DNA from: a virus
Lineage: Duplodnaviria; Heunggongvirae; Uroviricota; Caudoviricetes
Virus record (IMG/VR): IMGVR_UViG_2728369554_000001
Strand: one strand, 5' to 3'
Length of the DNA: 10,639 bases
This document shows, piece after piece, positions 5,372-10,639 of this stretch; the stretch's first letter is position 1, and each line of letters starts with the position of its first letter. Position numbers and translations under genes: made by a program. Under the pieces are notes generated by a model. The model searched no databases. It was not told the DNA's origin and worked only from the letters and a program-made list of their open reading frames with translations.

Positions 5372-6070
5372 TTACTGCGAAAGTTTGTTAATGGAAAGGA
5401 AGCCGCCAAAGTTGCCGACGTTATTGCGAAACTTACAGCCGCTCAGGCATTTGCTGCATTTATCCTTCGTGATATCGGACGTCGGCTGGTCATATTCATC
5501 CGCGACTGCCGGACCGTGATAACCGCACTCATCACCGCGATAGGTCCAGGTGCAGGTGTTGGCCAGCATGATACGTCCCGGAAAAACAGCGCCGTCCGTT
5601 TCCGTCGGCGTGGACAGTACAAAAGAGGCACTCACCGCGCTCAGTTCGCTGCACTGCTCAATGCGCCAGCGGCTGATCACCTCCTGCTCCGGATCGGCGT
5701 CACTGTTTCCGTTGACGAAGTTCACCGCATCCAGAAAACGGGCGTAAACCTTACGCCGGACCACCGTTCCGCCGACCAGACTCTGCAGATCTTCCGCCAT
5801 CCCGGTGACCATACCGTACAGGTTAGAAACCGTCAGTGTCGGACGGGCAGCACTGCCCTTGCCGTTCAGTTCAAATCCCGTCCCCTGAATGGGGTATACC
5901 TGATACTGCCGCCCCTGCCAGATAACCGGCTCACCTTTTTCGTTCTGCTCATTACAGAAAAAATAACGTTCACCACCGACCTCTGTCAGATCGATTTCCC
6001 AGNNNNNNNNNNNNNNNNNNNNNNNNNNNNNNNNNNNNNNNNNNNNNNNNNNNNNNNNNNNNNNNNNNNN
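5372..6070 (-). CDS. L: Minor tail / tail tip protein L; N-terminal ~23 codons lie in the N run, start estimated
   Basis: Readable from 6001 downward: WEIDLTEVGGERYFFCNEQNEKGEPVIWQGRQYQ ... CSKCLSGCKFRNNVGNFGGFLSINKLSQ, stop TAA 5374..5372. Matches lambda gpL as recalled from its residue 24 onward. Start at about 6070 is extrapolated, assuming the 153-N run is true length. Confidence 0.8.
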   Translation of the reverse strand, partial: XXXXXXXXXXXXXXXXXXXXXXXWEIDLTEVGGERYFFCNEQNEKGEPVIWQGRQYQVYPIQGTGFELNGKGSAARPTLTVSNLYGMVTGMAEDLQSLVGGTVVRRKVYARFLDAVNFVNGNSDADPEQEVISRWRIEQCSELSAVSASFVLSTPTETDGAVFPGRIMLANTCTWTYRGDECGYHGPAVADEYDQPTSDITKDKCSKCLSGCKFRNNVGNFGGFLSINKLSQ

Positions 6071-6155
6071 NNNNNNNNNNNNNNNNNNNNNNNNNNNNNN
6101 NNNNNNNNNNNNNNNNNNNNNNNNNNNNNNNNNNNNNNNNNNNNNNNNNNNNNNN
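6003..6155. other. Run of 153 N (assembly gap or masked bases) spanning the M end / L start junction
   Basis: Directly visible in the sequence. Confidence 0.99.
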
Positions 6156-6395
6156 TTTCCAGTCATAAGGTGGCGTCCACTGAAATGCACGGACGCCACC
6201 GTGCCGTTCCAGAAAGGCTTTTAAAGATGGGTGGTCACATTTACGAACACGTATCGTCACGCTGTAAGTCGACAACTGGTTATTCAGTCCCGCCGCACGA
6301 CGCTGTTCATAACCATCGCCCAGCTTCACTGTCACCACTTTCGGCTCTGATACCACATTCATATCCGGGCGCACTTTCCAGTGAAACGTCTCCAT
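6066..6395 (-). CDS. M: Minor tail protein M; C-terminal ~29 codons lie in the N run, end estimated
   Basis: ATG 6395..6393; METFHWKVRPDMNVVSEPKVVTVKLGDGYEQRRAAGLNNQLSTYSVTIRVRK ... WTPPYDWK (80 aa readable) matches lambda gpM as recalled. The ATG overlaps the H stop (TAATG). End coordinate extrapolated from the lambda M length (109 aa) as recalled. Confidence 0.8.
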
Positions 6396-9300
6396 TACCG
6401 ATATGCTCCACTTAACCGACCACCATCACGGGCCTGCTGTTGCATAAAGTCCGCTGCCGCTTTTTTCCCGAGGTCATAAACCGCCTTCAGGGCAGCCGGA
6501 CCTATCTGCCCGTTCGTGCCATCGTTATTGATCTCGATGTTGTACTGCGGGGAAAACATCGCCATACCTGACCCCCCAATATCCGCCACAACCCCCAGCT
6601 TACCGTCAGCACCACGACGCAATGGCAGAATGGCTTCAGGTCCCGCTTCCCCCATCACACCCGCGCCTTTTGCAAAAGCAAAAAACGTCGGACGGTTAAC
6701 CACCGTGCCACTGTAACGACTCAAATCAGCAGACTGATAAATCCCCCCATTGGCATTCAGGGAAAGGCTGCTGAGATCAAATCCCAGTACACTGCCAATC
6801 CCTTTTATCGATTTCATCATGGTTGCCTGCGCCAGGATTTTCGCCATATCTGACAGCACAGAAGAGGTGAAGGATTTGAAATTGAGTTTGCCGGTAGTGA
6901 CAAAAGTTGCCAGGCCATTTCCCATGTTGCTGAAGGCTGACGAGAACACCTGTTCTGCTGTTTCTGCCGTATTATCTGCATCCACGGTAAAATCCTGAAA
7001 TGCACGCAGGACTCCGTTTTTCCAGTTACCCTGCACAACTTCAAGCTGTTGCCAGTAACGGCGATTCTCATTCAGTTGTCGGTTCAGGCTCTCCGTCAGC
7101 GCCTGCTCGGCCTTTCTGTAGTCATCCGTGTTATATGTCCCTTTCTGCTCACTATCCCGCCTCAACNNNNNNNNNNNNNNNNNNNNNNNNNNNNNNNNNN
7201 NNNNNNNNNNNNNNNNNNNNNNNNNNNNNNNNNNNNNNNNNNNNNNNNNNNNNNNNNNNNNNNNNNNNNNNNNNNNNNNNNNNNNNNNNNNNNNNNNNNN
7301 NNNNNNNNNNNNNNNNNNNNNNNNNNNNNNNNNNNNNNNNNNNNNNNNNNNNNNNNNNNNNNNNNNNNNNNNNNNNGTCGCTGATGCGCTGCTGCAGAGC
7401 CAGAAGCTGTTTATGCGCTTCTGTCATCCTTTCCGTGGCAATGCCTGCTGACTGTCTGGCAGCAGCAATCTGTCCTTCCACCTGTGCCTGTTGCTGACTG
7501 TACTGCAGCAATAACCGGGTGGCCTCATCATTACGGGTTTCGCGTGTTTTTTTCTTACCGGATGCCAGGGCTTTCTCGTAACGTTCATTTTCACGTTGTA
7601 TCGCCGCATCCCTGACAGCCTGATCGGCGTACTGCATGGCATTAATACGCGCAATTTCACGCTGATGTCGTGCAGCTTCCGTTTCATTCATCCGGTTCAG
7701 TGCAGCATTTTCAGCATTACGGCGTTTCTGTTGCTCCTGATAATTCCGCTCTGCCTGCTCTTTTGCATCCTGCAAATCCTTCTGGCGTTTTTTCTCCTGA
7801 AGATCGTTAAGACGCTGCTGATCGTATTCAACCTGAGAAGATGATGCCGTCCAGGGGAGTCTTTTCGCCCGCGACACTTTCTCCTGTAAAGCGGCAATCT
7901 GTTCATCCAGCGAGTCTTCACGACCAATATTCATGGCCGCATCCCAGAAACGACTCCACAAATCAGACAGATACTTCAGCGTACTGCCAAGCGCATTGAG
8001 GTTATTATCAATATCCGCAGTACGCCGACCGGTTTCCTCTGCCAGTGCAGACATGGCTATCCGTGCAGCATCACTGGACCGCCCCTGCTCCCCAAGGACG
8101 CGTATCTGCTCAAGCTGAGTGGCAGTAAGAAAATGCAGCTCATTGTCCAGAGCCTTCGCGGCATTTACAGGATCATCCTTCAGCCGCTTAAACTGATTTA
8201 TGGTATCGCTGACCGACTGGCCAACCGATCGCTCCATCTGTGCGGCAGCTCTCGCCACCATACCGATATCGTTTCCACGAAATGCACCACTCCCCACCAC
8301 CTGAGCCAGCGCACCGGCTGCAGCATGTTGCGTGATACCATTCCCGGAAATAGCACGACTGAGCGTCCACAGCTGCCCGGCAGTGACTCCGGCATAATGC
8401 CCCGTCAGCGACAGCTGGCGGTTAAATTCTTCCCCCTCCTTCTGACCGTCATACCAGGCTTTACCCAGGCCATAGACAGCCGCGGCAATACCGCCAATAA
8501 CCCCGCCAAGCATCATGCCTTTCGGTGACATCAATGTGTCTATCCACCCAGCACGGTTAGCCAGCGTTATTCCGGATCCCCTCAGCGCACCTAAATTTCC
8601 GCGGGCCAGTTCACCTATCAGAACGCCTATCTCCTGACGGGCCGCTGCANNNNNNNNNNACTGGCGGTTAAATTCTTCCCCCTCCTTCTGACCGTCATAC
8701 CAGGCTTTACCCAGACCATAGACGGCCGCGGCAATACCGCCAATAACCCCGCCAAGCATCATGCCTTTCGGTGACATCAGTGTGTCTATCCATCCGGCAC
8801 GGTTAGCCAGCGTTATCCCGGATCCCCTCAGCGCACCTAAATTTCCGCGGGCCAGTTCACCTATCAGAACGCCTATCTCCTGACGGGCCGCTGCACTTTT
8901 CAGCCCCAGCGAATGCGTGGCTTTTCCTGCCTGCTCCATTTTGCGGATATACACTTCTGCAGCACTGCTTACCCCCAGCTGGGCAGCCTTAGCACGAAGC
9001 AACTCAGAAGAAGAAAGATTCTGGCGGGTTGCCTGCTCTTTAAGCTGACGGATAAACGCCACTTTCTGTCGGGTAGCCTCTTCCTCAGCCTGTGTAAGAA
9101 NNNNNNNNNNTGCCTTAGCACGAAGCAACTCAGAAGATGAAAGATTCAGGCGGGTTGCCTGCTCTTTAAGCTGACGGATAAACGCCACTTTCTGTCGGGT
9201 AGCCTCTTCCTCAGCCTGTGTAAGAACACGGGTTTTCGCCGTAACCTCAGAAATCAGCGCCAGATAATCCTGCTGACCAATCCCGCCACTGTTTCTGGCC

Positions 9301-10069
9301 TGTCGGATCTGCTGCTGAATACGCTGTAATTCCTGCAGCCCCGCACTGGCCTGTTTCACACTGTCAATCTGACGATAAAACGCAGCAGCCGCTTTATCCT
9401 GAGCCTCCGCCAGAGCCATGGCCTGCGCCTGTTCCTCGCGCATTTTCTGGCTCAGTGCCTCCATGCGCTGGCGGGTTTTCTCCACCTCGCGGGCCATGCG
9501 TTCATGAGCCTGTGCGTTCTTCTCCACCGTCTGCGCATGGACGGATGCGGCTGTTGCAGCCGAAGAAGCTGCCTGCGTTGTCTGCCGGGCGGCCTGAGTC
9601 TGACGCTCCATAAAACGCTGCATACGGGCAGAAGACCGTTCTGCATCGNNNNNNNNNNACCCGCACTGGCCTGTTTCACACTGTCAATCTGACGATAAAA
9701 CGCAGCAGCAGCTTTATCCTGAGCCTCCGCCAGAGCCATGGCCTGCGCCTGTTCCTCGCGCATTTTCTGGCTCAGCGCCTCCATACGCTGGCGGGTTTTC
9801 TCCACCTCGCGGGCCATGCGTTCATGAGCCTGTGCGTTCTTCTCCACCGTCTGCGCATGAACGGATGCGGCTGTTGCAGCCGAAGACGCCGCCTGCGTTG
9901 TCTGCCGGGCGGCCTGAGTCTGACGCTCCATAAAACGCTGCATACGGGCAGAAGACCGTTCTGCATCGCTGGCTGCACCATTCAGAAGGTTTTTGATACG
10001 GGGGATTTCATTTTTAAACTCTGCCGCATCAATCCCCAAATCAATGACCAGGTTGGCTATCTGGTCCAT
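6395..10069 (-). CDS. H: Tail tape measure protein (lambda H-like); as assembled it is broken by a 210-N run, three 10-N joins with duplicated flanks and two frame changes
   Basis: N-terminus MDQIANLVIDLGIDAAEF at ATG 10069..10067 with GGAGGTG Shine-Dalgarno 8 nt upstream (track start 10099 is a TTG). Coiled-coil-like Ala/Gln/Arg/Glu-rich middle and a hydrophobic Gly-rich segment (MMLGGVIGGIAAAVYGL). C-terminus INNDGTNGQIGPAALKAVYDLGKK ... RDGGRLSGAYR matches the lambda gpH C-terminus as recalled. Stop TAA 6397..6395. True length cannot be stated from this assembly. Confidence 0.85.
7167..7376. other. Run of 210 N inside the tape measure gene; reading frame differs on the two sides
   Basis: Directly visible. 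The frame carrying H above the run (ORF 7152..9623) is not the frame of the H C-terminal ORF (6395..7165), although 210 is a multiple of 3. Confidence 0.99.
8415..8895. repeat. Direct duplication, 235 bp x 2 (8415..8649 and 8661..8895), separated by exactly 10 N; assembly-join artefact candidate
   Basis: Copies align at offset 246 with 6 mismatches; N run at 8650..8659. Confidence 0.9.
8986..9226. repeat. Direct duplication, 115 bp x 2 (8986..9100 and 9112..9226), separated by exactly 10 N; assembly-join artefact candidate
   Basis: Copies align at offset 126 with 2 mismatches; N run at 9101..9110. Confidence 0.9.
9340..9968. repeat. Direct duplication, 309 bp x 2 (9340..9648 and 9660..9968), separated by exactly 10 N; assembly-join artefact candidate
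   Basis: Copies align at offset 320 with 6 mismatches; N run at 9649..9658. Offset is not a multiple of 3, so it splits the tape measure ORF into two frames. Confidence 0.9.
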
Positions 10070-10391
10070 AACGCACACCTCCGGAAATACCTTCCCCAAG
10101 ATGCATCAGTTCTTCGTCCGTTCGCTCCGGTATCCCGTTCTCTTCCGGTAAAAGGCTGAAATCAGCCACCGCAGCATCACTGCTGCCGGACACCATTCTC
10201 ACGATCAATGCCTTCAGCGAGGCAAACTGCGCATCCATCCACACATCACTGAAGCTCTGCATCCGGAAATAATCGCCCCACTCACCAAGCTCAGTGGCCG
10301 ACATTTCCGACAGCATCCGCCGCCAGTCTGCCCGCCGGAACTCCCGGGCAAGCCGCATGACAAACTGCATTTCCCGCGTCAGGACTTTTCC
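10041..10391 (-). CDS. T: T portion of the tail assembly chaperone GT fusion, entered by -1 programmed frameshift from G
   Basis: The -1 frame relative to G is open from the candidate slip site (10391) to a TGA at 10043..10041 (ORF-track ORF 10041..10370). Position between G and the tape measure and overlap with the G end are the conserved G-T architecture of long-tailed phages. No sequence match to lambda T is claimed. Confidence 0.6.
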   Translation of the reverse strand, partial: GKVLTREMQFVMRLAREFRRADWRRMLSEMSATELGEWGDYFRMQSFSDVWMDAQFASLKALIVRMVSGSSDAAVADFSLLPEENGIPERTDEELMHLGEGISGGVRYGPDSQPGH

Positions 10392-10639
10392 GGCGTCAGC
10401 GCCTCATGCTCATCATCCACGGCATTATCAATGGCCCCCATACCGCTCAGCGACAGAACCATCTCCGCCCCCGCACCCAGGGCATCATACGACCATGTTG
10501 TAATAACGGATGCGCAAAGCGTCTCTACATCCTTAGACTGATCCGCATTCCACAGTGAGCGGGAAACCAGCCAGGCATTGATATCCATCCCCATCCGCAG
10601 AAAAGCAATCTGTCGTTCAGCCTCCGGCAGTTCTCCCTC
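10379..10639 (-). CDS. G: Tail assembly chaperone G-like protein; partial, N-terminus beyond the window end
   Basis: Minus-strand frame is open from the window end (EGELPEAERQIAFLRMGMDINAWLV ... AIDNAVDDEHEALTPEKS) to TGA at 10381..10379. Acidic C-terminus; sits directly upstream of T/H. Assigned by position and frameshift architecture, not by recognised sequence identity to lambda G. Confidence 0.6.
   Translation of the reverse strand, partial: EGELPEAERQIAFLRMGMDINAWLVSRSLWNADQSKDVETLCASVITTWSYDALGAGAEMVLSLSGMGAIDNAVDDEHEALTPEKS
10385..10391 (-). promoter_or_regulatory. Candidate -1 programmed ribosomal frameshift heptamer (G GAA AAG) for G to GT
   Basis: Minus-strand reading ccg gaa aag tcc TGA: heptamer GGAAAAG sits two codons before the G stop; shifting -1 gives gga aaa gtc ctg ... 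in the open T frame. One mismatch to the lambda heptamer G GGA AAG as I recall it. Confidence 0.45.

What the first reader, a model, noticed from the sequence alone, without database searches (positions are those of the whole stretch)
10369..10393. G-T programmed -1 frameshift with a non-canonical heptamer GGAAAAG
G ends ccg gaa aag tcc TGA, and the -1 frame from this point is open for about 115 codons to a stop that overlaps the tape measure start by 29 nt. This is the conserved tail-chaperone frameshift arrangement. The heptamer differs from lambda's G GGA AAG as I recall it: after the shift the A-site Lys tRNA re-pairs perfectly (AAG to AAA) but the P-site re-pairing (GAA to GGA) is imperfect, so efficiency may differ, or the base may be a consensus error.
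Basis: partly seen in the sequence, partly recalled or inferred. Interest (0 to 1): 0.45.

Follow-up and report, generated by a model that had tools for sequence, protein, structure and literature searches.

The report
Phage tail-chaperone G-T frameshift site
This is the ordinary lambda-type tail-chaperone (G/GT) -1 ribosomal frameshift site of a common E. coli prophage; its slightly imperfect slip sequence GGAAAAG is not an error but the conserved, already-annotated variant used by phage N15, phi80, Gifsy and many relatives.

Summary
Gene G (PF06894) ends CCG GAA AAG TCC TGA at 10393-10379. The -1 frame (PF06223, gpT) runs 114 codons from 10385 to a stop at 10043-10041, overlapping the tape-measure ATG (10069) by 29 nt. 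The shift can only occur within 10403-10382, and GGAAAAG (10391-10385) is the only shift-prone sequence there.

The consensus-error idea is refuted. The same CCGGAAAAG is present in finished phages mEp460, cdtI and Ayreon, and in Gifsy-1, Gifsy-2 and Fels-1 at about 70% identity. G_GAA_AAG also sits at the homologous position in N15, HK225, phi80 and mEp043. It occurs in 212 of 236 loci where a heptamer was scored. N15's GenBank record already labels it the slippery sequence.

The first G is invariant in 33 of 33 sequence clusters, across five preceding codons. This points to two-tRNA slippage, with tRNA-Glu re-pairing on GGA through a central G-U pair.

In vitro, G GAA AAG served as a "less slippery" control against lambda's G GGA AAG, so efficiency is probably low. 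No downstream RNA structure is conserved. A Shine-Dalgarno-like GAGG 10 nt upstream is positionally enriched in this clade and may stimulate the shift; this is an inference.

Verdict: real, functional by comparative evidence, already known, low novelty.

The parts
10379..10639 (-). 3' part of tail assembly chaperone gene G. The start lies beyond the window edge. The gene ends ...ALTPEKS* with TGA at 10381-10379.
   Evidence: Translation. PF06894 Phage_TAC_2, E=6e-20. The region is 99.8% identical to G of mEp460, cdtI and PhiR47_1. Full-length G in relatives is 128 aa.
10385..10391 (-). Shift site G_GAA_AAG. Zero-frame codons are GAA (Glu, P site) and AAG (Lys, A site). After the -1 slip the tRNAs face GGA and AAA.
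   Evidence: Sequence. It is the only A_AAR-type site in the permissive window. It is invariant in mEp460, Ayreon, PhiR47_1, Gifsy-1, Gifsy-2 and Fels-1. It is present in 212 of 236 scored loci, 107 of 125 unique contexts and 31 of 41 clusters. The same heptamer is annotated as the slippery sequence in N15.
10404..10406 (-). Last stop codon (TGA) in the -1 frame upstream of the shift site. It sets the 5' limit of where a productive shift can occur.
10402..10405 (-). Shine-Dalgarno-like GAGG, 10 nt upstream of the heptamer. It is a candidate frameshift stimulator; this role is inferred, not shown.
   Evidence: Sequence. Core SD-like 4-mers lie 9-13 nt upstream in 18 of 41 clusters, against a mean of 2.9 (max 6) for other positions. 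The anti-SD duplex-energy peak is confined to 7-11 nt in the clade with an early G stop. 21 of 30 clusters reach -4 kcal/mol or lower, against 12.9 +/- 2.6 after synonymous-codon resampling, P about 0.001.
10041..10385 (-). T segment in the -1 frame: 114 codons VLTREMQFVMRLAREF...QPGH plus the stop at 10043-10041. Base 10385 is read twice. Predicted GT fusion is 127 + 114 = 241 aa, assuming a full-length 128-aa G as in relatives.
   Evidence: Translation. PF06223 Phage_tail_T, E=5e-15. Conservation of the -1-frame protein sequence starts right at the heptamer: K-[VA]-[LF]-x-x-E-[LM]-x-F-[VA]-x-x-LARE in the window, Gifsy, Fels-1, N15 and lambda.
9659..10069 (-). 5' part of the tape-measure gene (lambda H homologue). 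ATG at 10069-10067 overlaps the end of T by 29 nt. The gene is interrupted at 9649-9658 by an assembly gap.
   Evidence: Downstream parts match TMP_2 and Tape_meas_lam_C.

Best explanation
This is the programmed -1 ribosomal frameshift site of the lambda-type tail assembly chaperone pair G/GT in a mEp460/cdtI-like lambdoid prophage.

Most ribosomes read G to its TGA and make the chaperone gpG, which is 128 aa in relatives. A small fraction slips back one base on G_GAA_AAG. This happens when peptidyl-tRNA-Glu is on GAA in the P site and Lys-tRNA(mnm5s2UUU) is on AAG in the A site.

- tRNA-Lys re-pairs perfectly with AAA.
- tRNA-Glu re-pairs with GGA through G-C, a central G-U, and A-U.

Translation then continues in the T frame for 114 codons, giving a roughly 241-aa GT fusion with junction ...ALTPEK|VLTREMQ....

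By analogy with lambda, the G part binds the tape-measure protein and the T part recruits the major tail protein. The low GT:G ratio is the purpose of the device.

The heptamer is intrinsically weaker than lambda's G_GGA_AAG. No downstream RNA structure helps it. An SD-like GAGG 10 nt upstream may raise the rate.

Shown here: the gene identities, the frame geometry, and nucleotide-level conservation of the site. Inferred: that the slip occurs, its efficiency, the two-tRNA mechanism, and the SD effect.
For: 1. Gene identity and synteny. G matches PF06894 and T matches PF06223. The order V-G-T-H is annotated in 99.8%-identical phages. H-M-L-K-I-J homologues follow in the window.

2. Geometry. 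T is in the -1 frame. The -1 frame opens at 10403 and G stops at 10379, so only about 8 codons are permissive. GGAAAAG is the only shift-prone sequence among them.

3. Conservation of the heptamer. Sequence upstream of it diverges freely, but the heptamer is fixed. Gifsy-1, Gifsy-2 and Fels-1 are about 70% identical overall and all have CCG GAA AAG. N15, HK225, mEp237, phi80, mEp043 and Flotzy have GCG GAA AAG. The survey of 237 loci is.

4. Synonymous-site constraint. In 33 of 33 clusters with G_GAA_AAR the preceding codon ends in G, although it is CCG, GCG, CTG, TTG or ATG. Glu is always GAA. Lys is AAG in 31 of 33. The third bases of codons -2 and -3 vary freely. Upstream of the shift the -1 frame is not translated, so only an RNA-level signal explains this.

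5. Homologous position to lambda. Lambda-type DE3 has G_GGA_AAG at exactly the homologous position, 13 codons before LARE. Lambda frameshifts about 4% there (PMC3296357; PMC5009743).

6. Prior annotation. The N15 record annotates GGAAAAG as 'slippery sequence for -1 translational frameshift'. Gifsy-1 and Gifsy-2 T are annotated as frameshift products.

7. Precedents for shifting on A_AAG with an imperfect P-site codon. IS1222 uses G_CGA_AAG and B. subtilis cdd uses A_CGA_AAG (PMC5009743). PRFect defines a 'twofour' motif class, which by its naming would include GGAAAA, and discusses G:U re-pairing of tRNA-Glu on GGA (PMC10885494).
Against: - No protein or ribosome-profiling evidence for the GT product of this clade was found.
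- No database protein carries the ...TPEKVLTRE... junction.
- In a reconstituted E. coli system, AUG GAA AAG gave mainly the 0-frame product and was used as the 'less slippery' control (PMC6924986).
- The A_AAG tetramer alone is barely shifty without a stimulator (PMC4066793).
- No downstream structure is supported. Single-sequence folds give z = -1.09 and +0.38. The alignment consensus is -1.78 kcal/mol with no covarying pair.
- An in-frame ATG at 10370 allows, in principle, independent T translation. RefSeq and GenBank annotate it that way.
- The loci sampled are biased towards relatives of the window, and the clusters are not phylogenetically independent.
Confidence: 0.85

Rival explanations
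1. Same -1 frameshift and same GT product, but by single-tRNA slippage. Only tRNA-Lys slips on A_AAG (the tetranucleotide or hexanucleotide mode seen in IS1222 and cdd). The P-site tRNA-Glu does not genuinely re-pair.
For: Re-pairing of GAA to GGA has a second-position mismatch. [quoted passage not shown] A_AAG is the most shift-prone tetramer in E. coli, and CGA_AAG sites are used naturally.
Against: Heptamer position 1 is G in 33 of 33 clusters across five different preceding codons. A Lys-only slip does not require this. G is exactly what restores the first-position pair for tRNA-Glu on GGA. Variants at the same position are also two-codon motifs: G_GGA_AAG, A_AAA_AAG, C_CCA_AAA.
Confidence: 0.2
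2. Consensus or sequencing error: the true sequence is lambda's canonical GGGAAAG.
For: The window is a low-quality scaffold with five N-runs and duplicated contig ends.
Against: GGAAAAG is identical in finished, independently sequenced phages: mEp460, cdtI, Ayreon, PhiR47_1, N15, phi80, Gifsy-1, Gifsy-2 and Fels-1. It is present in 212 of 236 scored loci. The module occurs in 1845 of 5426 complete E. coli genomes. The nearest gap is more than 700 nt away.
Confidence: 0.01
3. No recoding: T is translated on its own from the ATG at 10370, as annotated by PGAP and GenBank ('phage tail assembly protein T', 109 aa).
For: ATG at 10370 opens a 109-aa ORF. T is a separate CDS in mEp460, PhiR47_1 and RefSeq E. 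coli genomes.
Against: That ATG is not conserved. Gifsy-1 and Fels-1 have CTG there, and Gifsy-2 lacks even the next Met. Only GGGAA lies 2 nt upstream of it, which is poor SD spacing. Conservation of the T-frame protein extends upstream of the ATG right to the heptamer. It does not explain the synonymous-site constraint on the heptamer. In lambda the T segment is made as the GT fusion (PMC5009743).
Confidence: 0.05
4. The frame change is made at the RNA level, by RNA polymerase slippage on the A run, rather than by the ribosome.
For: There is an A4 run in the heptamer.
Against: Four A residues is well below the homopolymer lengths associated with productive transcriptional slippage (general knowledge from the recoding literature reviewed in PMC5009743). 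The conserved elements (position-1 G, the AAG end, the codon register) are those of a ribosomal slip site.
Confidence: 0.01

Closest known systems
Phage lambda G/GT -1 programmed frameshift (G_GGA_AAG; Levin, Hendrix & Casjens 1993; Xu, Hendrix & Duda 2004, 2013, 2014)
   Same: - The same gene families are involved (PF06894 and PF06223).
- The location is the same, between the major tail and tape-measure genes.
- The shift is at the homologous codon position, 13 codons before LARE.
- Direction (-1) is the same, and so is the A-site Lys AAG-to-AAA slip.
- No downstream structure was found here.
   Different: - One base differs, at heptamer position 3 (A instead of G). The P-site tRNA is therefore tRNA-Glu re-pairing with a central G-U, rather than tRNA-Gly re-pairing at the wobble position.
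- The G stop is 1 codon after the heptamer rather than 5.
- An SD-like GAGG lies 10 nt upstream, which lambda lacks.
Phage N15 genes 14/15 (GenBank NC_001901.1, misc_feature 10027-10033 'slippery sequence for -1 translational frameshift')
   Same: The heptamer GGAAAAG is identical and sits at the homologous position. The gene order is the same.
   Different: - T is only about 42% identical.
- The preceding codon is GCG, not CCG.
- The G stop is 5 codons downstream.
- There is no SD-like element at 7-13 nt.
A_AAG hexanucleotide shift sites: IS1222 G_CGA_AAG and Bacillus subtilis cdd A_CGA_AAG (Licznar et al. 2003, as summarised in PMC5009743)
   Same: A -1 shift driven by the shifty E. coli lysyl-tRNA on A_AAG, with a P-site codon that is not of the XXY type.
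   Different: - Here the P-site tRNA can still form three pairs, one of them G-U. The conserved position-1 G suggests it does.
- The biological context differs (transposase or cdd versus tail chaperone).
- Stimulation of IS-element frameshift sites by pseudoknots or hairpins was seen in the papers read, but whether IS1222 itself uses one was not checked here.
E. coli dnaX -1 frameshift (A_AAA_AAG, with an SD-like element 10 nt upstream and a downstream hairpin)
   Same: - AAG is the A-site codon.
- An SD-like element lies at about 10 nt upstream (GAGG in the window, GAGGTG in the commoner allele).
   Different: - The heptamer is weaker.
- No downstream hairpin was found.
- The expected efficiency is a few percent or less, not about 50-80%.

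Membership tests
Lambda-type tail assembly chaperone G/GT -1 PRF | Upstream ORF is a gpG homologue | tested here: met
   PF06894 Phage_TAC_2, E=6e-20, 71.8 bits against a cut-off of 27.
Lambda-type tail assembly chaperone G/GT -1 PRF | Downstream ORF is a gpT homologue, lies in the -1 frame relative to G, and overlaps G's 3' end | tested here: met
   PF06223 Phage_tail_T, E=5e-15.
Lambda-type tail assembly chaperone G/GT -1 PRF | The pair lies between the major tail protein gene and the tape-measure gene | tested here: met
   The tape-measure gene starts 29 nt before the T stop in the window. The major tail gene lies beyond the window edge, but it is immediately upstream of G in 99.8%-identical mEp460 and PhiR47_1.
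Lambda-type tail assembly chaperone G/GT -1 PRF | Canonical X_XXY_YYZ slippery heptamer in the overlap | tested here: not met
   G_GAA_AAG: the XXY codon is GAA, not GGA. This does not exclude membership, because the family includes annotated members with this same heptamer, such as N15.
Lambda-type tail assembly chaperone G/GT -1 PRF | A conserved shift-prone sequence at the homologous position, constrained at synonymous sites | tested here: met
   212 of 236 scored loci and 31 of 41 clusters have GGAAAAG. Position-1 G is kept in 33 of 33 clusters over five codons.
Lambda-type tail assembly chaperone G/GT -1 PRF | A GT fusion protein is made at a low ratio to G and is required for tail assembly | not testable with these tools
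   No proteomic or reporter data exist for this clade in the papers searched. No database protein carries the predicted junction.
dnaX-type stimulated -1 PRF | SD-like element about 10 nt upstream of the heptamer | tested here: met
   GAGG at 10405-10402, spacing 10 nt. The position is enriched in the clade. Function was not tested.
dnaX-type stimulated -1 PRF | Stable downstream stem-loop or pseudoknot 5-9 nt after the heptamer | tested here: not met
   z = -1.09 (90 nt) and +0.38 (50 nt). RNAalifold on 14 divergent relatives gave -1.78 kcal/mol with 0 compensatory pairs.
A_AAG tetra/hexanucleotide shift sites (IS1222, cdd) | A_AAG in frame, with a P-site codon unable to re-pair canonically | tested here: inconclusive
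   A_AAG is in frame. However, the P-site tRNA-Glu can form G-C, G-U and A-U pairs on GGA, and the conserved position-1 G argues that it does.

The most novel reading that the evidence does not exclude
G_GAA_AAG is treated by biochemists as a poorly slippery control. In one large clade of enterobacterial prophages (mEp460, cdtI, Gifsy, Fels-1) it may be made functional by a conserved upstream Shine-Dalgarno-like element 10-13 nt away (4-mer spacing). That would make the G/GT signal of these phages a two-part 'weak heptamer + rRNA-pairing' device.

The N15/phi80 clade uses the same heptamer without the SD-like element. It would then run at a markedly lower GT:G ratio, or use some other unrecognised stimulator.
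Probability: 0.3. Interest if true: 0.4.

Novelty: already known. Interest (0 to 1): 0.15.

Why it matters
For biology, little is new. The G/GT frameshift is a textbook case, and this heptamer is already annotated in N15.

Three practical points follow:

1. RefSeq and PGAP annotate T in this module as a stand-alone 109-aa protein. The module is present in about a third of complete E. coli genomes. No database protein carries the predicted GT junction, so the real product is systematically missing from annotation.

2. Frameshift finders limited to X_XXY_YYZ will miss this heptamer, which was the commonest in the sample of this family taken here.

3. A sequence used in vitro as a 'less slippery' control is under strong purifying selection as a natural shift site. 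It would be a convenient natural test case for how weak heptamers are tuned, for example by an upstream SD-like element and by mnm5s2U34. Both tRNAs on the site, Glu and Lys, carry that modification.

Tried and rejected
- **Downstream stimulatory structure.** Single-sequence folds of 50 and 90 nt were no better than shuffles. An alignment fold of 14 divergent relatives gave essentially no consensus structure and no covariation. Rejected.
- **Rfam scan of 10000-10639.** Only chance-level hits, far below gathering scores.
- **Promoter and terminator scan of 9900-10639.** Nothing relevant on the coding strand.
- **Literature for an explicit description of GGAAAAG as a phage slip site.** Full-text searches gave only primer hits, apart from Peng et al. 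2019, which uses it as a control. Licznar et al. 2003 (NNA_AAG series) is not held, and access to Xu et al. 2004 was not attempted. It therefore remains unknown whether its efficiency has been measured.
- **Genome-contig scan with the window's T protein.** It returned only near-identical loci. The first viral-contig scan with an alignment did the same. Diversity was obtained instead by querying with distant T homologues and by tblastn against phage records.
- **Search for annotated GT fusion proteins of this clade.** Four fused proteins were found. All are singletons, and their sequences are consistent with deletions or frame errors rather than annotated slippage products.
- **Bock et al. 2019 thermodynamic model.** It does not cover second-position changes, so it cannot predict this site.
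- **bioRxiv 2025.10.02.679949.** Nothing on this heptamer turned up in a term search.

Full report
**1. What is in the sequence**

The genes of this window run on the minus strand. Reading that strand, the zero-frame codons GAG GCG CTG ACG CCG GAA AAG TCC TGA occupy 10405-10379.

- The upstream ORF runs off the window edge at 10639. It translates to ...MGAIDNAVDDEHEALTPEKS*.
- The -1 frame has a TGA at 10406-10404. It is then open from 10403 to a stop at 10043-10041.
- A ribosome that slips on GAA AAG re-reads base 10385 and translates 114 further codons (VLTREMQFVMRLAREF...QPGH).
- The next gene starts at ATG 10069, 29 nt before that stop.

Every number in the finding is therefore right, to within one codon. 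The heptamer GGAAAAG is 10391-10385.

The heptamer alone is not statistically remarkable. There are 2 copies in the window against 1.45 expected. Its position is remarkable: it lies in frame inside the only 25-nt stretch where a productive -1 shift is possible.

**2. Gene identities and context**

- The upstream ORF matches Pfam PF06894, the lambda tail assembly chaperone G (E=6e-20).
- The -1 ORF matches PF06223, minor tail protein T (E=5e-15).
- Downstream on the same strand lie tape-measure domains (TMP_2, Tape_meas_lam_C), then homologues of lambda M, L, K, I and J.
- The 640 bases around the site are 99.5-99.8% identical to phages mEp460, cdtI, PhiR47_1, Tritos and others. In those phages the annotated order is major tail protein - G - T - tape measure, with the same 29-nt T/H overlap.
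- The module is present in 1845 of 5426 complete E. coli genomes.

**3. Is the odd base an error?**

No. The stretch CTGACGCCGGAAAAGTCCTGACGCGGG is identical in mEp460, Ayreon and PhiR47_1.

The Salmonella prophages Gifsy-1, Gifsy-2 and Fels-1 are only about 70% identical over this region, and their sequences upstream of the site are unrelated. They nevertheless keep CCG GAA AAG YCC TGA.

I then collected 237 loci encoding T homologues with 30-100% identity to the window's T. For each, I extracted the G/T overlap mechanically.

| Heptamer at the homologous position | Where found |
|---|---|
| GGAAAAG | 212 of 236 scored loci; 107 of 125 unique contexts; 31 of 41 clusters (<75% identity upstream). 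Includes N15, HK225, mEp237, phi80, mEp043 and Flotzy as GCG GAA AAG |
| GGGAAAG | Lambda-type DE3, PhiR12_2, a Stx2a phage |
| AAAAAAG | Stx2_14040 |
| CCCAAAA | Two Vibrio phages |
| GGCAAAA, GGAAAAA or GGGAAAA, followed directly by TAG | A few loci |

The N15 GenBank record annotates exactly GGAAAAG (10027-10033) as 'slippery sequence for -1 translational frameshift'. The Gifsy records describe T as part of a frameshift product.

One caveat applies. My sample was seeded from relatives of the window, so the proportions do not describe the whole family.

**4. Evidence that the heptamer is a functional RNA signal**

Among the 33 clusters with G_GAA_AAR:

- The codon before GAA is CCG, GCG, CTG, TTG or ATG. 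These are four different amino acids, yet the third base is always G.
- Glu is always GAA, never GAG.
- Lys is AAG in 31 of 33 clusters.
- The third bases of the two preceding codons vary freely: G12/T9/C7/A5 and G8/A5/T11/C9.

The -1 frame is not translated upstream of the shift, so protein coding cannot explain the invariant G. A slip site in which the P-site tRNA must find G at the first position of its new codon does explain it.

In addition, conservation of the T-frame protein begins exactly at the heptamer. The motif is K-[VA]-[LF]-x-x-E-[LM]-x-F-[VA]-x-x-L-A-R-E in the window, Gifsy, Fels-1, N15 and lambda. By contrast, the ATG at 10370 that annotators use as a T start is not conserved.

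**5. Mechanism**

What is known about the tRNAs comes from PMC5009743 and PMC3296357, plus one piece of general knowledge:

- E. coli has one tRNA-Lys (mnm5s2UUU) for both AAA and AAG. It is notoriously shifty on A_AAG.
- tRNA-Glu carries the same U34 modification (general knowledge).

After a -1 slip, tRNA-Lys pairs perfectly with AAA. tRNA-Glu (anticodon 3'-CUU*-5') faces GGA and forms G-C, G-U and A-U pairs.

Peng et al. 2019 (PMC6924986) used exactly AUG GAA AAG in a reconstituted E. coli system as the 'less slippery' comparison to G GGA AAG. It gave mainly the 0-frame product with wild-type EF-G, but it did shift with EF-G domain-4 mutants.

Sharma et al. 2014 (PMC4066793) found the following:

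- A_AAG alone is barely above background.
- With a strong pseudoknot it reaches 5.6%.

The site is therefore expected to be weak. Weak is what the system needs: lambda keeps about 96% of ribosomes in frame, and a roughly 30:1 G:GT ratio is critical.

Natural use of A_AAG with non-canonical P-site codons is documented for IS1222 (G_CGA_AAG) and B. subtilis cdd. The PRFect authors list a 'twofour' motif class among annotated tail-chaperone frameshifts, and they invoke G:U re-pairing of tRNA-Glu on GGA.

**6. Stimulators**

Downstream structure is not supported:

- The 50 and 90 nt after the heptamer fold no better than shuffles, with z = +0.38 and -1.09.
- An RNAalifold consensus over 14 divergent relatives is -1.78 kcal/mol with no compensatory pair.

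Upstream, the window has GAGG at 10405-10402, 10 nt before the heptamer. The commoner allele has GAGGTG.

- Across 41 clusters, core SD-like 4-mers (GAGG, GGAG, AGGA) sit 9-13 nt upstream in 18. Other 5-nt windows average 2.9, with a maximum of 6.
- These elements are built from different codon pairs in different lineages: GAG-GYG, GAG-GAA, GCG-GAG, ATG-GAG, AAG-GAC, CAG-GAC and GTG-GAG.
- An anti-SD duplex-energy profile shows a single peak at 7-11 nt (8-mer 3' end to heptamer). The peak appears only in the 30 clusters whose G stop lies 0-1 codon after the heptamer, which is the window's group. It is absent from the 11 N15/lambda-type clusters.
- Resampling synonymous codons while keeping the protein gives 12.9 +/- 2.6 clusters at -4 kcal/mol or lower, against 21 observed, P about 0.001.

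The spacing matches the SD-like stimulator of dnaX, which lies 10 nt upstream. The existence of an upstream SD-like stimulator in dnaX is mentioned; the 10-nt figure is general knowledge.

This is suggestive, not proven. The clusters are related, and the acidic C-terminal tail of G makes GAG-G common.

**7. Rivals**

- **Consensus error.** Excluded by section 3.
- **Independent initiation of T at ATG 10370.** Unlikely. The ATG is not conserved, there is no properly spaced SD, coding conservation extends upstream of it, and it does not explain the constrained heptamer.
- **Transcriptional slippage on A4.** Implausible.
- **Single-tRNA (Lys-only) slippage.** This variant of the same event remains possible. 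The invariant position-1 G argues against it.

**8. Comparison with known systems and novelty**

This is a member of the lambda G/GT tail-chaperone frameshift family. It has the N15-type heptamer rather than the lambda-type one. The canonical X_XXY_YYZ criterion is not met, but that criterion does not define the family.

Nothing here is new in kind. The instance is 99.8% identical to published phages. Three residual points of interest remain:

- There is an annotation gap. T is annotated as a free-standing protein across RefSeq E. coli, and no database protein has the ...TPEK|VLTRE... junction. The four fused G-T proteins found are singletons whose sequences look like deletion or frame-error products.
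- The efficiency of this heptamer is unmeasured, as far as the accessible literature shows.
- The SD-like element is a possible stimulator.

**9. Quality of the window**

The window is a scaffold with N-runs at 6003-6155, 7167-7376, 8650-8659, 9101-9110 and 9649-9658. Each of the three 10-N gaps is flanked by 97-98% identical direct duplications. This makes the tape-measure gene look broken. None of it touches the frameshift site.

Noticed in passing
window 9340-9959, 8415-8895, 8986-9226 (gaps at 9649-9658, 8650-8659, 9101-9110): Three 10-N gaps lie inside the tape-measure gene. Each is flanked by a near-identical direct duplication (300 nt at 98%, 235 nt at 97%, 115 nt at 98%). This looks like un-merged overlapping contig ends from scaffolding, not real repeats. 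Complete E. coli genomes cover the same query span in a shorter stretch.
   Followed up: partly
window 7167-7376 and 6003-6155: Two long N-runs (210 and 153 bases). The first splits the tape-measure gene into two apparent ORFs: 7152-9623 with TMP_2, and 6395-7165 with Tape_meas_lam_C. The second lies in the M/L minor tail gene region. The apparent frame break at about 7166 is a gap artefact rather than a pseudogene.
   Followed up: yes
window 10402-10405 (minus strand) and homologous positions in L004-L006, L128, L163, L220 and others: A Shine-Dalgarno-like element (GAGG, GGAG or AGGA) lies 9-13 nt upstream of the heptamer. It is built from different codons in different lineages. It is enriched only in the clade whose G stop lies 0-1 codon after the heptamer, and is absent in N15/lambda-type loci.
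   Followed up: partly
loci L221-L231, L233 (GGCAAAA TAG); L110-L113 (GGGAAAA TAG); L232, L234, L235 (GGAAAAA TAG); L109, L112, L114-L116 (GGAAAAG TAG): In some relatives the G stop codon TAG follows the heptamer directly, and in most of these (not the last group listed) the last codon is AAA rather than AAG. One group has G_GCA_AAA, where the P-site codon cannot re-pair at all. This suggests a different sub-mechanism: a slip on A_AAA with a stop codon in the A site.
   Followed up: no
proteins P0085, P0086, P0087, P0105: Four singleton database proteins are in-frame G-T fusions, apparently created by deletions or frame errors of different sizes around the junction. They are natural or artefactual 'hard-wired' GT variants, and none has the predicted slip junction.
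   Followed up: partly
window 10417-10419 (minus strand codon GTG): The window has GCC GTG GAT (Val) where mEp460, Ayreon and PhiR47_1 have GCC GGG GAT (Gly). This is a private substitution in the acidic tail of G, 26 nt upstream of the heptamer.
   Followed up: no
RefSeq E. coli genomes, for example NZ_AP018808.1 2138970-2139609: PGAP annotates 'phage tail assembly protein T' and 'phage tail assembly chaperone G' as separate CDSs in every listed genome, with no GT product named. The frameshift product of this very common prophage module therefore appears to be unannotated.
   Followed up: partly
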